Shown here: piece after piece, positions 7,560-31,445 of the stretch
Layout of the letters: the number at the start of each line of letters is the position of its first letter
How positions within the stretch are numbered: the first letter of the stretch is position 1
Assembly (NCBI RefSeq): GCF_029227855.1
Contig: NZ_CP074356.1
Source: Escherichia coli
Lineage (GTDB): Bacteria > Pseudomonadota > Gammaproteobacteria > Enterobacterales > Enterobacteriaceae
Length of the DNA: 64,000 nt
Reading direction: 5' to 3' (one strand)
Program-made: the position numbers and the translations under genes
Notes under the pieces: generated by a model
What the model saw: only the letters and a program-made list of their open reading frames with translations
What the model was told of the DNA's origin: nothing
The model's database searches: none

Positions 7560-7973
7560 ATGAGCGAAGCACTTAAAATTCTGAACAACATCCGTACTCT
7601 TCGTGCGCAGGCAAGAGAATGTACACTTGAAACGCTGGAAGAAATGCTGGAAAAATTAGAAGTTGTTGTTAACGAACGTCGCGAAGAAGAAAGCGCGGCT
7701 GCTGCTGAAGTTGAAGAGCGCACTCGTAAACTGCAGCAATATCGCGAAATGCTGATCGCTGACGGTATTGACCCGAACGAACTGCTGAATAGCCTTGCTG
7801 CCGTTAAATCTGGCACCAAAGCTAAACGTGCTCAGCGTCCGGCAAAATATAGCTACGTTGACGAAAACGGCGAAACTAAAACCTGGACTGGCCAGGGCCG
7901 TACTCCAGCTGTAATCAAAAAAGCAATGGATGAGCAAGGTAAATCCCTCGACGATTTCCTGATCAAGCAATAA
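7560..7973 (+). CDS. hns: Nucleoid-associated DNA-binding protein H-NS
   Basis: 137 aa [44 protein letters not shown] ... TWTGQGRTP; matches E. coli H-NS. Confidence 0.97.
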
Positions 7974-8000: not shown

Positions 8001-8026
8001 ATCCCGCCATCGGCGGGATTTTTTAT
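8001..8026 (+). terminator. hns rho-independent terminator
   Basis: Perfect hairpin ATCCCGCC-atc-GGCGGGAT followed by TTTTTT. Confidence 0.7.
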
Positions 8027-8064
8027 TGTCCGGTTTAAGACAATTTAATAAGAATAAGCTATAA

Positions 8065-8776
8065 TAAATATCCTCCGGCATAGCCGGAGGTTTTTCAAAT
8101 GCGCCTATAAGGCTCTCTTACCAGCCGCGCCCTAACAGGCGCACACGATCTGACATTTGCATCCAACTTCGTTACTTACGGCCCGTAAACGGGCTGCCCG
8201 GATAGGGAATCGATAACTGCTCTCCCATTTTATCCTCTTCAAGCTGGTGCTTTATGTAATCCTGTATCTTCGCCGTGTTCTTACCCACCGTATCGACGTA
8301 GTACCCTCTGCACCAGAACTCCCTGTTCCTGTATTTGAATTTCAAATCACCAAACTGCTCGTAAAGCATCAGACTGCTTTTCCCTTTCAGATATCCCATA
8401 AAGCCGGATACGCTCATTTTGGGCGGGATCTCCACAAGCATATGGATATGATCTGCACAGCATTCAGCTTCCAGAATCCGTACACTTTTCCACTCACACA
8501 GCTTTCTCAAAATACTGCCTATTGCTCTACGCTTCTCTCTGTAGAACACCTGTCTTCGGTATTTTGGCGCAAAAACTATGTGATATTTACAGTTCCATCG
8601 GGTGTGCGCTAAGCTCTTTTCGTTCCCCATTGGGACCCCCTTTTGATTTCTTGTTTGACACTTGCAGTTGCCAGACCGCAAGGTGTTTTAACAAATCAAA
8701 AGGGGTTTTAATAACTGGCTTAAAGCTGAAAGCTTTCCGGAACCCCCAGCCTAGCTGGGGGTTTTCTGTGCACAAA
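8065..8776 (-). mobile_element. IS200 (IS200/IS605 family) copy 1, tnpA oriented on minus strand
   Basis: 712 bp unit repeated in direct tandem; contains Y1 HuH transposase ORF and terminal palindromes TCCTCCGGCatagCCGGAGG (8071-8090) and CCCCCAGCctaGCTGGGGG (8743-8761); boundaries ambiguous by +/-2 bp. Confidence 0.85.
8172..8630 (-). CDS. tnpA: IS200 transposase TnpA (Y1 HuH single-strand transposase), 152 aa from the internal ATG
   Basis: MGNEKSLAHTRWNCKYHIVFAPKYRRQVFY...HIHMLVEIPP (HxH motif) ...IQDYIKHQ (catalytic Tyr); ORF track's longer 169 aa version (8172..8681) starts at an upstream TTG. Confidence 0.88.
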   Translation of the reverse strand: MGNEKSLAHTRWNCKYHIVFAPKYRRQVFYREKRRAIGSILRKLCEWKSVRILEAECCADHIHMLVEIPPKMSVSGFMGYLKGKSSLMLYEQFGDLKFKYRNREFWCRGYYVDTVGKNTAKIQDYIKHQLEEDKMGEQLSIPYPGSPFTGRK

Positions 8777-9488
8777 TAAATATCCTCCGGCATAGCCGGA
8801 GGTTTTTCAAATGCGCCTATAAGGCTCTCTTACCAGCCGCGCCCTAACAGGCGCACACGATCTGACATTTGCATCCAACTTCGTTACTTACGGCCCGTAA
8901 ACGGGCTGCCCGGATAGGGAATCGATAACTGCTCTCCCATTTTATCCTCTTCAAGCTGGTGCTTTATGTAATCCTGTATCTTCGCCGTGTTCTTACCCAC
9001 TGTATCGACGTAGTACCCTCTGCACCAGAACTCCCTGTTCCTGTATTTGAATTTCAAATCACCAAACTGCTCGTAAAGCATCAGACTGCTTTTCCCTTTC
9101 AGATATCCCATAAACCCGGATACGCTCATTTTGGGCGGGATCTCCACAAGCATATGGATATGATCTGCACAGCATTCAGCTTCCAGAATCCGTACGCTTT
9201 TCCACTCACACAGCTTTCTCAAAATACTGCCTATTGCTCTACGCTTCTCTCTGTAGAACACCTGTCTTCGGTATTTTGGCGCAAAAACTATGTGATATTT
9301 ACAGTTCCATCGGGTGTGCGCTAAGCTCTTTTCGTTCCCCATTGGGACCCCCTTTTGATTTCTTGTTTGACACTTGCAGTTGCCAGACCGCAAAGTGTTT
9401 TAACAAATCAAAAGGGGTTTTAATAACTGGCTCAAAGCTGAAAGCTTTCCGGAACCCCCAGCCTAGCTGGGGGTTTTCTGTGCACAAA
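8777..9488 (-). mobile_element. IS200 copy 2, head-to-tail with copy 1
   Basis: Second 712 bp unit, about 99% identical to copy 1 with at least five substitutions (e.g. 8290 vs 9002, 8403 vs 9115, 8474 vs 9186); same terminal palindromes at 8783-8802 and 9455-9473. Confidence 0.85.
8884..9342 (-). CDS. tnpA: IS200 transposase TnpA, copy 2
   Basis: Protein identical to copy 1 TnpA; the nucleotide differences between copies are synonymous or outside the ORF. Confidence 0.88.
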   Translation of the reverse strand: MGNEKSLAHTRWNCKYHIVFAPKYRRQVFYREKRRAIGSILRKLCEWKSVRILEAECCADHIHMLVEIPPKMSVSGFMGYLKGKSSLMLYEQFGDLKFKYRNREFWCRGYYVDTVGKNTAKIQDYIKHQLEEDKMGEQLSIPYPGSPFTGRK

Positions 9489-9517
9489 AAAACGGCGTCG
9501 ATTGCTCAACGCCGTTT
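9486..9517 (-). terminator. galU rho-independent terminator
   Basis: On the minus strand: ACGGCGT-tgagcaatcg-ACGCCGT then U-run; the U-run abuts the IS200 copy 2 boundary. Confidence 0.6.
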
Positions 9518-9540
9518 CGTGGATAACACCGATACGGATG

Positions 9541-10449
9541 TTACTTCTTAATGCCCATCTCTTCTTCAAGCCAGGCTTTAAATTCCGTGCCAAGGGTGTT
9601 ATGACGAATACCGTATTCAACGAAGGCCTGCATGTAACCTAATTTATTACCGCAGTCATGGCTCTTCCCTTTCATATGATAGGCTTCCACCGTTTCTTTT
9701 TCGATCAGCATATCAATTGCGTCGGTGAGCTGAATTTCATCACCAGCTCCCGGAGGGGTTTTTGCCAGCAACGGCCAAATATCCGCGCTAAGTACGTAAC
9801 GACCCACAATAGCGAGATTAGACGGCGCAACATCCGCTTTCGGTTTTTCTACCACACCAACCATCGGTACGCTTTCACCCGGCGCTAATTCAACGCCTTT
9901 ACAATCCACAACGCCATATGCGGTAACATCAGCAACCGGTTCAACCATGATCTGGCTATGACCCGTTTCATCAAAGCGGCGGATCATCTCTGCCAGGTTA
10001 TCCTGTGACAAATCGGATTCATATTCATCCAGAATAACGTCAGGCAAAATAACAGCCACAGGTTCATCACCCACTACCGGGTGAGCACACAATACCGCAT
10101 GTCCCAGGCCTTTCGCCAGCCCCTGACGAACTTGCATAATAGTCACGTGCGGCGGACAAATAGACTGCACTTCATCAAGCAGTTGACGTTTTACACGTTT
10201 TTCCAGCATTGCTTCCAGTTCAAAACTGGTATCAAAGTGGTTTTCAATCGAGTTTTTAGATGAGTGAGTAACCAGCACAATTTCAGTAATGCCAGCCGCA
10301 ATACATTCATTCACGACGTATTGAATTAATGGCTTATCGACAAGTGGCAGCATCTCTTTCGGGATGGCTTTCGTCGCCGGCAACATCCTGGTTCCTAATC
10401 CCGCAACGGGGATAACGGCTTTTTTGACTTTCGTATTAATGGCAGCCAT
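9541..10449 (-). CDS. galU: UTP-glucose-1-phosphate uridylyltransferase GalU
   Basis: 302 aa [49 protein letters not shown]. Confidence 0.96.
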
Positions 10450-14282: not shown

Positions 14283-14367
<85 letters not shown>

Positions 14368-14401
14368 TCTCAAGCATTACCTCAAAATTTGAATTACCCC
14401 T

Positions 14402-14486
<85 letters not shown>

Positions 14487-14542
14487 TCACTTTTCAAAAG
14501 TCCGTGAACTCTCAAACGAATCCGCAATTAAATATTCTGCCC

Positions 14543-14629
14543 ATGCGGGGAAGGATGAGAAGCTTCGACCAAGGTGCGACTCGGGCGCCAGCGAGAAAGC
14601 GTTGCCGCAGGCAACGACCCGAAGGGTGA
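14543..14629 (+). CDS. tpr: Protamine-like small protein Tpr encoded in the tyrT operon 3' repeat region
   Basis: Short arginine-rich [31 protein letters not shown] downstream of tyrV, followed by a partial repeat of the tRNA 3' end (TCCTTCCCCCACCACCATCACTT at ~14650). Confidence 0.5.
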
Positions 14630-14751
14630 AGCGCGCAGCGCTGAGTAATCCTTCCCCCACCACCATCACTTCCTGTAAATACTCAAAACCTGTTACTCCG
14701 AGCTAATTCTACCCAATGGCACCGCGTTTACCGGACCTACAATATCCTCCC

Positions 14752-30796: not shown

Positions 30797-30862
30797 GAGA
30801 AAACCCCCGCACGTTGAGAGGTAAAACCTGACAACAGAACGGGGGCTAATCTTGAACCATCA
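30797..30862 (-). ncRNA. rdl: Rdl antisense RNA (type I antitoxin), approximate coordinates
   Basis: Minus-strand hairpin-rich segment ending in CGGGGGUUUUCUCUUU terminator, antisense to the ldr 5' leader; position by analogy with known LDR architecture. Confidence 0.45.
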
Positions 30863-30911
30863 ACAATTCAAGAATAGCCGCAAAATGTTGTCATTACAAC
30901 AAGGCGGCTAT

Positions 30912-31332: not shown

Positions 31333-31398
31333 GAGAAAACCCCCGCACGTTGAGAGGTATAACCTGACAACAGAACGGGGGCTAATCTTGAACCAGAA
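31333..31398 (-). ncRNA. rdl: Rdl antisense RNA copy 2, approximate coordinates
   Basis: Same segment as in unit 1, ~535 bp downstream. Confidence 0.45.
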
Positions 31399-31445
31399 CA
31401 ATTCAAAATAGCCGCAAAATGTTGTCATTACAACAAGGCGGCTAT

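What the first reader, a model, noticed from the sequence alone, without database searches (positions are those of the whole stretch)
8065..9488. Head-to-tail tandem pair of IS200 elements inserted at the galU terminator, between convergent hns and galU
Two 712 bp IS200 units lie in direct tandem with no spacer. They are about 99% identical but differ at five or more positions (for example 8290/9002, 8403/9115, 8474/9186), so this is not an assembly duplication. The right boundary of copy 2 abuts the T-run of the galU rho-independent terminator. IS200/IS605-family elements insert as single-stranded DNA 3' of a short target motif that remains at the left-end flank and do not make target duplications. 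A second insertion at the same motif would land between the motif and the first copy, which produces exactly this direct dimer. The alternative of a duplication followed by divergence is less parsimonious for such a small unit.
Basis: partly seen in the sequence, partly recalled or inferred. Interest (0 to 1): 0.7.

Follow-up and report, generated by a model that had tools for sequence, protein, structure and literature searches.

The report
Tandem IS200C pair at galU terminator
Two slightly different copies of the small mobile element IS200C sit head-to-tail right after the T-run of the galU terminator in an E. coli clinical isolate, most likely because a second copy inserted at a target the first had left intact; this is real but ordinary.

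Summary
Two 711-bp IS200C elements lie in direct tandem on the minus strand (8063-8773 and 8775-9485), separated by one extra A/T at 8774, so the period is 712. They differ at exactly five positions. The three differences inside tnpA are synonymous. The window is E. coli JNEC-KY178, and both tnpA genes are already annotated in RefSeq.

The left end of the proximal copy abuts the T7 run of the galU terminator, and K-12 shows the empty site with no target duplication. About 120 of 5,426 complete E. coli genomes carry a single IS200C at this site, in several registers and haplotypes, so it is a hot spot. Only JNEC-KY178 has the dimer here, but the same right-end/left-end junction occurs in 51 genomes. 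All eight dimers I read sit directly after a terminator T-run.

Duplication followed by divergence is rejected: both haplotypes exist as independent elements elsewhere, and copy 2 has an identical twin in the same genome. At galU the order is inferred only by analogy, because no close relative exists and the single-copy alleles are mosaics. This is a known element and mechanism of modest interest.

The parts
7560..7973 (+). hns coding sequence, the left neighbour, convergent with galU
   Evidence: ORF of 137 aa; annotated as hns in the identical RefSeq record
8001..8025 (+). hns terminator hairpin (ATCCCGCC-ATC-GGCGGGAT) plus its T-run, left intact 37 bp upstream of the insertion
   Evidence: Read directly from the sequence. 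The same element is present in the K-12 empty site, with a slightly different hairpin sequence.
8063..8773 (-). IS200C copy 1, the distal copy (D), 711 bp. Haplotype C,G,A,G,T at element offsets 226, 340, 421, 619, 658.
   Evidence: Boundaries come from the K-12 empty site and from single-copy alleles. The boundary can slide by 0-2 nt because of flanking A/T. An exact 711-bp match is common in other E. coli genomes.
8072..8090 (-). Right-end subterminal hairpin of copy 1 (CCTCCGGC-TAT-GCCGGAGG), followed by the tip ATATTTATT and preceded by TTGAAAAA
   Evidence: Fold; flagged as terminator-like on both strands
8172..8630 (-). tnpA of copy 1: 152 aa, Y1/HUH transposase with the HIH motif and YY near the C-terminus
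   Evidence: ORF; NF033573 at 147.7 bits; RefSeq product WP_000526135.1 at homologous loci
8640..8763 (-). Left-end RNA region of copy 1: the terminator hairpin at 8741-8763 plus the 5'UTR stem-loop
   Evidence: Rfam RF01405 STnc490, 146.1 bits against a gathering score of 56; inverted repeats I2 and I5
8774..8774 (.). A single extra A (a T on the transposon strand) between the two 711-bp elements
   Evidence: The same extra T is present at the kdsA dimer relative to its single-copy state.
8775..9485 (-). IS200C copy 2, the terminator-proximal copy (U), 711 bp. Haplotype T,C,G,A,C.
   Evidence: It is 711/711 identical to the aaeB-yhcO copy of the same genome.
8784..8802 (-). Right-end hairpin of copy 2. 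Its tip ATATTTATT, followed by a T, abuts the left end of copy 1.
8884..9342 (-). tnpA of copy 2, encoding the same protein as copy 1
9352..9475 (-). Left-end RNA region of copy 2, with the terminator hairpin at 9453-9475. On the transposon strand the sequence GTGCACAG-AAAA lies immediately 5' of the hairpin.
   Evidence: Rfam RF01405, 144.6 bits; fold; sequence
9486..9492 (-). T7 run (A7 on the + strand) of the galU terminator, the target that directly abuts the left end of copy 2
9493..9516 (-). galU terminator hairpin (ACGGCGTTGA-GCAA-TCGACGCCGT)
   Evidence: Fold of 9440-9530 on the minus strand: -25.3 kcal/mol, z = -5.4
9541..10449 (-). galU coding sequence, co-directional with both tnpA genes
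   Evidence: ORF of 302 aa; RefSeq annotation

Best explanation
Two separate IS200C elements entered the same target one after the other. That target is the 3' end of the T-run of the galU rho-independent terminator.

IS200C is an IS200/IS605-family element moved by a Y1/HUH transposase as single-stranded DNA. It integrates immediately 3' of a T-run, with its left end next to the run, and it does not duplicate the target. The T-run therefore survives the first insertion and can be used again. A second element that integrates there lands between the T-run and the left end of the resident copy, giving a head-to-tail dimer.

On this reading copy 2 (8775-9485), which has an identical twin at aaeB-yhcO in the same genome, is the newcomer, and copy 1 (8063-8773) is the older resident.

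What is shown:
- the anatomy of the dimer;
- the absence of a target duplication;
- the terminator T-run target at every site examined;
- the independent origin of the two copies;
- the 'newcomer is terminator-proximal' order at two other loci.

What is inferred:
- the order at galU;
- that an AAAA tract 5' of the left-end hairpin pairs with the T-run, as the guide sequence does in IS608;
- that slippage of this homopolymer pairing, or plain homopolymer slippage, accounts for the extra T at the junction.

The dimer has no evident function. Both host terminators stay intact.
For: Family and anatomy.

Empty versus occupied sites show a 711-bp insert with no duplication at galU and at aaeB-yhcO.

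Hot spot: about 120 genomes carry a single IS200C at hns-galU. Among them are at least three boundary configurations (T7|X, T6|X|T, T7|X|T) and at least six haplotypes, several of them on identical flanks.

Recurrence of dimers: the right-end/left-end junction is found whole in 51 genomes. Eight dimers at eight loci all have a GC hairpin plus T5-7 directly abutting the left end GTGCACAGA. In most of them the upstream gene runs in the same direction.

Independent origin of the two copies:
- the copies differ by 5 positions at galU, 4 at icd and 29 at kdsA;
- both galU haplotypes exist as free-standing elements;
- copy 2 has an identical copy in JNEC-KY178 itself.

Order of arrival:
- at kdsA, the single allele in RIVM_C037794 equals the distal copy exactly, and about 256 genomes have the single state against 3 with the dimer;
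- in WP5-S18-ESBL-07, the proximal copy at icd equals that genome's own kdsA element at 711/711, including its rare tip.

Orientation: GC skew of the window's + strand is -0.031, so tnpA on the minus strand is co-oriented with replication. This fits the reported IS200 bias (PMC3971601).
Against: At galU itself neither copy matches any single-copy allele read elsewhere. The best match to copy 1 among 119 genomes is 2 mismatches, and none of the 11 alleles I read equals copy 1 or copy 2.

Every single allele read at this locus has C at offset 658, as copy 2 does. Copy 1, the supposed resident, has T there.

The EC16 allele equals copy 1 on its hns side joined to copy 2 on its galU side. That is what a recombination-based origin, or a collapse of the dimer, would give.

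The dimer contains one T more than the empty site plus 2 x 711 bp, which a strictly precise insertion does not predict.

The right end is itself a hairpin followed by a T-rich tip, so insertion 3' of the resident's right end, the mirror order, is mechanistically conceivable.

Read-level support for the assembly was not available.
Confidence: 0.58

Rival explanations
1. Mirror order. Copy 2 (with one extra T after its right end, as in FDAARGOS_448, Survcare321 and 118UI) was the resident. Copy 1, the commonest IS200C haplotype, then integrated immediately 3' of the resident's right end. That end is a hairpin followed by a T-rich tip and so resembles the terminator target.
For: The right-end hairpin plus ATATTTATT(T) is scored as terminator-like. 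Single-copy alleles in the configuration T7|X|T exist at this site. All single alleles at the locus share C at offset 658 with copy 2, and the majority allele TCGGC differs from copy 2 at one site only. This model needs no extra nucleotide.
Against: In the two dimers where the order can be read (kdsA, icd), the newcomer is the terminator-proximal copy. The T7|X|T alleles sit on different flank haplotypes from JNEC-KY178. No exact copy 2 single allele was seen among the 11 alleles read.
Confidence: 0.17
2. Recombination origin. An excised, circularised IS200C with haplotype T,C,G,G,T recombined homologously with a resident single copy of haplotype C,G,A,A,C, with the crossover between offsets 421 and 619. 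This is a Campbell-type integration, and it would leave two reciprocally chimeric copies around a circle junction.
For: The outer parts of the dimer equal the EC16 single-copy allele, which sits on a near-identical flank haplotype (identical over 1.7 kb on the hns side; 3 differences in 1.5 kb on the galU side, shared by EC16, EC581 and 3059). The inner parts form a permuted element whose reconstructed sequence exists exactly in 6 other genomes. This model needs no ad hoc mutations.
Against: Both actual copies are also natural haplotypes that exist elsewhere intact, so chimerism is not required. The reconstructed donor is not present in JNEC-KY178. Family intermediates are single-stranded circles, and no known route converts them to recombining duplexes. 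Junction length varies among dimers (0, T, TT, ATT). The same relation arises if EC16-type alleles are collapse products of a copy 1/copy 2 dimer.
Confidence: 0.12
3. Local duplication of one resident copy, by slippage or unequal exchange at the 2-bp AA microhomology, followed by divergence or by gene conversion from other copies.
For: Five of the eight dimers examined have two identical copies. For those, duplication cannot be excluded.
Against: The copies here differ at 5 of 711 positions. Each haplotype exists intact elsewhere, and copy 2 is identical to another copy in the same genome. Only 1 of about 120 occupied genomes has the dimer at this site. At kdsA the two copies differ at 29 positions.
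Confidence: 0.05
4. Assembly artefact: a single IS200C was assembled twice, with reads from other copies mis-polished into it.
For: None directly. JNEC-KY178 holds about 24 IS200C copies, which makes mis-assignment of short reads possible.
Against: The record is a complete genome. Each copy is an intact natural haplotype rather than a random mix. The same kind of dimer recurs in 51 genomes, including the identical dimer in three independent isolates at kdsA.
Confidence: 0.05

Closest known systems
IS200C / IS200 of Enterobacteriaceae (IS200 group of the IS200/IS605 family)
   Same: It has the same transposase (NF033573; RefSeq WP_000526135.1). It has the same left-end organisation: a terminator hairpin followed by a 5'UTR stem-loop, matching Rfam STnc490/art200 as described in PMC4513863. 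There are no terminal inverted repeats and no target duplication, and the element is about 0.7 kb long.
   Different: Nothing differs in the element itself. The head-to-tail dimer arrangement is the only unusual aspect. I found no description of IS200 dimers in the held literature.
IS608 / ISDra2 'peel and paste' single-strand transposition (PMC5027513, PMC3597680, PMC3201880)
   Same: Integration occurs 3' of a short target that remains next to the left end. There are subterminal hairpins at both ends. A short tract 5' of the left-end hairpin, here AAAA, could pair with the target, here a T-run. Orientation is co-directional with replication.
   Different: The target is a homopolymer T-run at the end of an intrinsic terminator rather than TTAC or TTGAT. 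Boundaries are fuzzy by 0-3 nt, with 711-714-nt units. There is no tnpB. Guide-target pairing for IS200C is inferred from sequence only.
Tandem (IS)2 dimers of DDE elements (IS21, IS30, IS911, IS256), from my own knowledge
   Same: Two copies lie head-to-tail with abutted ends.
   Different: Those dimers are transposase-made reactive intermediates with a fixed short spacer between inverted repeats, and often a junction promoter. Here the enzyme is HUH/Y1, there are no inverted repeats, the spacer varies (0, T, TT, ATT), and two different haplotypes are joined.
Terminator-like sequences upstream of IS200/IS605 elements (bioRxiv 10.1101/2025.07.22.666184)
   Same: That survey reports a strong excess of hairpin-plus-T-tract sequences immediately upstream of IS200/IS605-family elements.
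   Different: The survey reads this as a limit on transposase expression. The empty/occupied comparisons here show that the host terminator's T-run is the integration point itself.

Membership tests
IS200/IS605 family, IS200 group | Encodes a Y1 (HUH) transposase TnpA of about 150 aa | tested here: met
   NF033573 transpos_IS200 equivalog, 147.7 bits against a cut-off of 55. The HIH motif and the YY pair are visible in the ORF.
IS200/IS605 family, IS200 group | No terminal inverted repeats; subterminal hairpins at both ends | tested here: met
   The left-end hairpin (AACCCCCAGC..GCTGGGGGTT) and the right-end hairpin (CCTCCGGC..GCCGGAGG) fold with z about -5. The ends GTGCAC... and ...ATTTATT are not inverted repeats of each other.
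IS200/IS605 family, IS200 group | No target-site duplication | tested here: met
   The K-12 empty sites at galU and at aaeB-yhcO, compared with the occupied sites, show exactly 711 bp added. Some alleles carry one extra T, which I read as T-run length variation rather than a duplication.
IS200/IS605 family, IS200 group | Oriented insertion 3' of a specific short target that stays next to the left end | tested here: met
   All 10 or more independent sites read have a T5-7 run preceded by a GC hairpin directly 5' of the left end.
IS200/IS605 family, IS200 group | Active (top) strand on the lagging-strand template, that is, tnpA co-oriented with replication | tested here: met
   GC skew of the + strand is -0.031 over 64 kb and negative in 7 of 8 sub-windows, and tnpA is on the minus strand. 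This is a single locus only.
IS200/IS605 family, IS200 group | Single-stranded circular intermediate; target chosen by guide-target base pairing | not testable with these tools
   Only the AAAA tract 5' of the left-end hairpin and the GAAAAA tract 5' of the right-end hairpin were seen. Whether they pair with the T-run or with the right-end tip is inference.
IS200 (Salmonella/E. coli type) | Left-end terminator hairpin plus 5'UTR stem-loop and art200/STnc490 RNA region | tested here: met
   Rfam RF01405 full-length hits of 146.1 and 144.6 bits against a gathering score of 56. The architecture is as described in PMC4513863.
(IS)2 reactive tandem dimers of DDE elements | Inverted-repeat ends abutted with a fixed spacer and made by a DDE transposase | tested here: not met
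   The transposase is HUH, there are no inverted-repeat ends, and the junction spacer varies between 0 and 3 nt among dimers.

The most novel reading that the evidence does not exclude
The dimer was made not by a second transposase-catalysed integration but by homologous (Campbell-type) recombination of an excised IS200C circle with the resident copy. That would mean IS200 circles can become double-stranded and persist long enough to recombine. It would also explain why single-copy alleles at IS200C hot spots are mosaics. The galU dimer fits this exactly: its outer parts equal the EC16 allele, and its inner parts form a permuted element that exists elsewhere. The same data also fit a simple double insertion followed, in other lineages, by collapse.
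Probability: 0.12. Interest if true: 0.55.

Novelty: already known. Interest (0 to 1): 0.27.

Why it matters
For the host it matters little. Both the hns and the galU terminators stay intact, and the two elements sit in a neutral intergenic spot.

For students of mobile DNA, the comparative data gathered here give a clean natural picture of an element that hardly moves in the laboratory:
- IS200C integrates exactly at the end of terminator T-runs, co-directionally with the terminated gene.
- The same terminators are hit again and again in different lineages.
- Occupied targets stay usable, so head-to-tail dimers arise in about 1% of complete E. coli genomes.
- Alleles at hot spots are mosaics, as expected if dimers form and then collapse by recombination.

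None of this contradicts the known IS200/IS605 mechanism.

Tried and rejected
I used the repeat finder and a direct comparison instead.

2. I first read the chimeric relation to the EC16 allele as proof of Campbell-type integration of a circle. I downgraded this when both actual copies proved to be natural, intact haplotypes found elsewhere.

3. I looked for a sister strain to read the order of insertion. Two 24-kb queries gave at best 99.1% and 99.5% identity, so none exists in the collection.

4. I looked for a single-copy copy 1 allele at hns-galU and found none. The best was 2 mismatches. Candidate alleles with 5 mismatches were not copy 2 either.

5. I asked whether the aaeB-yhcO twin is an old, widespread insertion, which would make it the donor. 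Only 4 genomes carry it, so the direction stays open.

6. I tried to explain the junction T as a split of the target T-run. This was rejected because the upstream run is not shortened at kdsA or at galU.

7. Literature searches for IS200 or IS1541 tandem dimers found nothing relevant.

8. (IS)2-type reactive dimers were rejected on the membership test.
Full report
**What is in the window**

A direct repeat with a start-to-start distance of 712 bp runs from 8063 to 9488. Each unit holds one minus-strand ORF. Read from its ATG, each ORF encodes the same 152-aa protein (8172-8630 and 8884-9342). That protein is an IS200-type Y1/HUH transposase: NCBIfam NF033573 scores 147.7 bits against a cut-off of 55. 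Each unit also gives a full-length Rfam match to the IS200 left-end RNA region, STnc490 (146 and 145 bits against a gathering score of 56). Each has a GC-rich subterminal hairpin at both ends.

To the left lies hns (7560-7973, +) with its terminator. To the right lies galU (9541-10449, -), whose terminator hairpin and T7 run (9486-9516) directly abut the left end of the right-hand unit.

The window is 100% identical to E. coli JNEC-KY178, a human clinical isolate from Japan (NZ_AP045174.1). RefSeq already annotates both genes there as IS200C family transposase.

**Exact anatomy**

The K-12 empty site reads GCTAT-AAAAAAA-CGGCGTC in window orientation. Strains with a single IS200C at this site read GCTAT-[AATAAAT...GTGCAC]-AAAAAAA-CGGC. 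The element is therefore 711 bp and makes no target duplication. Its boundary is ambiguous by 0-2 nt because of the flanking A/T.

On the transposon strand the dimer reads: galU hairpin - T7 - [copy 2] - T - [copy 1] - ATAGC. The two elements are thus separated by one extra T (window 8774), and 'no spacer' is almost but not quite right.

The copies differ at exactly five positions: 8289/9001, 8403/9115, 8484/9196, 8682/9394 and 8721/9433. The three differences inside tnpA are synonymous.

**The site is a hot spot, and the target is the terminator T-run**

Of 5,426 complete E. coli genomes, about 120 have one IS200C at this position, and only JNEC-KY178 has two. I read 11 single-copy alleles. 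They fall into at least three boundary configurations (T7|X, T6|X|T, T7|X|T) and at least six haplotypes. Several of these lie on near-identical flanking sequence (identical on the hns side, with only a few shared differences from JNEC-KY178 on the galU side). This means repeated insertion, exchange among copies, or both.

A second IS200C in JNEC-KY178, at aaeB-yhcO, also sits exactly after the T6 of a terminator, again with no duplication relative to K-12.

The right-end/left-end junction of the dimer occurs whole in 51 genomes. I read eight dimers at eight different loci, one of them on an IncI1 plasmid. In every one the upstream flank is a GC hairpin plus T5-7 that runs straight into GTGCACAGA. 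In most the upstream gene is co-directional.

On the transposon strand the left end reads T-run|GTGCACAG-AAAA-hairpin, and the right end reads TTGAAAAA-hairpin-ATATTTATT|. By analogy with the guide/cleavage-site pairing of IS608 (PMC3201880, PMC3597680), the A-tracts next to the hairpins could pair with the T-run target and with the T-rich right-end tip. This is inference.

A recent survey reports an excess of terminator-like sequences just upstream of IS200/IS605 elements (bioRxiv 10.1101/2025.07.22.666184).

**Duplication or two insertions?**

- The copy 1 haplotype (C,G,A,G,T at offsets 226, 340, 421, 619, 658) is a very common IS200C sequence. Exact 711-bp matches occur on many chromosomes and plasmids.
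- The copy 2 haplotype (T,C,G,A,C) is exact in 14 records, including the aaeB-yhcO copy of JNEC-KY178 itself.
- Among the other dimers, the two copies differ by 4 positions at icd and by 29 at kdsA, where they are two different IS200 subtypes.

A local duplication followed by divergence therefore does not explain this dimer. An assembly artefact is unlikely, but it could not be tested on reads.

**Which copy came second?**

Two natural experiments support this.

1. At ldr-kdsA, about 256 genomes have a single IS200C and 3 have a dimer. The single allele of RIVM_C037794, on identical flanks, equals the distal copy at 705/705 positions and differs from the proximal copy at 29.

2. In WP5-S18-ESBL-07, the proximal copy of the icd dimer is 711/711 identical to that genome's own kdsA element, including the rare right-end tip ATATTTTTT. 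That tip marks the widespread kdsA insertion. The distal copy differs from the kdsA element at five positions.

For galU I could not repeat the test, because no genome in the collection is close to JNEC-KY178. The best matches are 99.1% and 99.5% over 24 kb.

**What does not fit neatly**

- No genome carries copy 1 as its single allele at hns-galU. The best match to copy 1 among 119 genomes is 2 mismatches, and none of the 11 alleles I read equals copy 1 or copy 2.
- All single alleles read have C at offset 658, like copy 2. Copy 1 has T there.
- The EC16 allele (C,G,A,A,C) equals copy 1 on its hns side joined to copy 2 on its galU side. This could be the resident allele before a Campbell-type recombination with a circular T,C,G,G,T element. 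That sequence does exist, in 6 other genomes. It could equally be the product of collapse of a copy 1/copy 2 dimer by recombination between the copies. I cannot separate these two readings.
- The right end is itself scored as terminator-like, so the mirror order is conceivable.
- The second insertion adds 712 nt rather than 711 nt, both at kdsA and at galU. Other dimers have 0, TT or ATT at the junction. I attribute this to register slippage in homopolymer pairing or to plain T-run slippage, without proof.

**Comparison with what is known**

The element is IS200C and passes every testable membership criterion of the IS200 group of the IS200/IS605 family. It has an HUH/Y1 TnpA, subterminal hairpins without inverted repeats, no target duplication, and oriented insertion 3' of a target that stays next to the left end. 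Its orientation is co-directional with replication: GC skew is -0.031 on the + strand, in line with PMC3971601.

It is not comparable to the reactive (IS)2 dimers of DDE elements. The enzyme class differs, there are no inverted repeats, and the spacer varies.

I found no paper in the held library that describes IS200 dimers. Re-use of a retained target is nevertheless a direct consequence of the family mechanism. With 10-30 occupied terminators per genome among a presumably large number of available terminators (my own rough guess, not counted here), a dimer frequency of about 1% of genomes needs no special explanation.

**Verdict**

The specific order at this locus is inferred by analogy, and a minority recombination scenario remains open. 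The feature is a known element behaving as its family predicts, in a neutral spot, and is of modest interest. The by-products may be useful to specialists: terminator T-run targeting, recurrent hot spots, mosaic alleles and variable junctions.

Noticed in passing
window 8063-9485, compared with loci L002, L005-L010, L025-L027: Single-copy IS200C alleles at the same hns-galU site differ between genomes whose flanks are identical (CGAAC, TCGGC, CGGGC, CCGAC and others). One allele is shifted by one nucleotide within the T-run. This suggests repeated insertion, and/or cycles of dimer formation and collapse that shuffle alleles.
   Followed up: partly
window 8774; loci L003, L012-L017: The junction between the two copies of IS200C dimers varies: nothing, T, TT or ATT. 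At kdsA and at galU the second insertion adds 712 nt rather than 711 nt, while the upstream T-run keeps its length.
   Followed up: partly
L016/L018/L023 (kdsA terminator in other strains); corresponds to window about 31.5-32 kb, which is empty in JNEC-KY178: The kdsA terminator next to the ldr/rdl toxin-antitoxin repeats is another IS200C hot spot, occupied in about 256 complete genomes. The element there has a right-end tip variant, ATATTTTTT instead of ATATTTATT.
   Followed up: partly
window 30798-30863 and 31334-31399 (minus strand): Two rdlD antitoxin RNA matches (Rfam RF01813, 84 and 87 bits), which are the Ldr/Rdl type I toxin-antitoxin repeats.
   Followed up: no
window 14283-14665: Two tRNA genes followed by an RtT RNA element (RF00391, 128 bits), which is the arrangement of a tyrT-type locus.
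   Followed up: no
window 9489-34000 and 40000-64000: These stretches are at most 99.1% and 99.5% identical to any other complete E. coli genome. By contrast, the 1.7 kb on the hns side of the insertion is identical to several strains. JNEC-KY178 has no close relative in the collection, and the region looks mosaic.
   Followed up: partly
hits H122-H124 (TUM14771, OX030728, GN02461) against window 9489-34000: In these genomes the matching region is about 712 bp longer than in JNEC-KY178 (25,224 against 24,512 bp, in two pieces). This may be a further IS200C insertion somewhere in the nar-ych region.
   Followed up: no
window 8037-8065 (+ strand): A promoter-like site (AAGACA, 17-nt spacer, TATAAT; 10 of 12 matches) has its -10 hexamer spanning the host flank and the IS right-end tip. 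It points into the element, antisense to tnpA. It is a consensus match only, and such sites are no more frequent here than in shuffled sequence.
   Followed up: no
L004 and L024 (aaeB-yhcO): The aaeB-yhcO terminator is occupied by IS200C in only four complete genomes: JNEC-KY178 and three Japanese pig isolates. In EC581 and in JNEC-KY178 that copy is identical to the genome's own hns-galU copy, which in JNEC-KY178 is the terminator-proximal one. The two genomes differ from each other at offset 619.
   Followed up: partly
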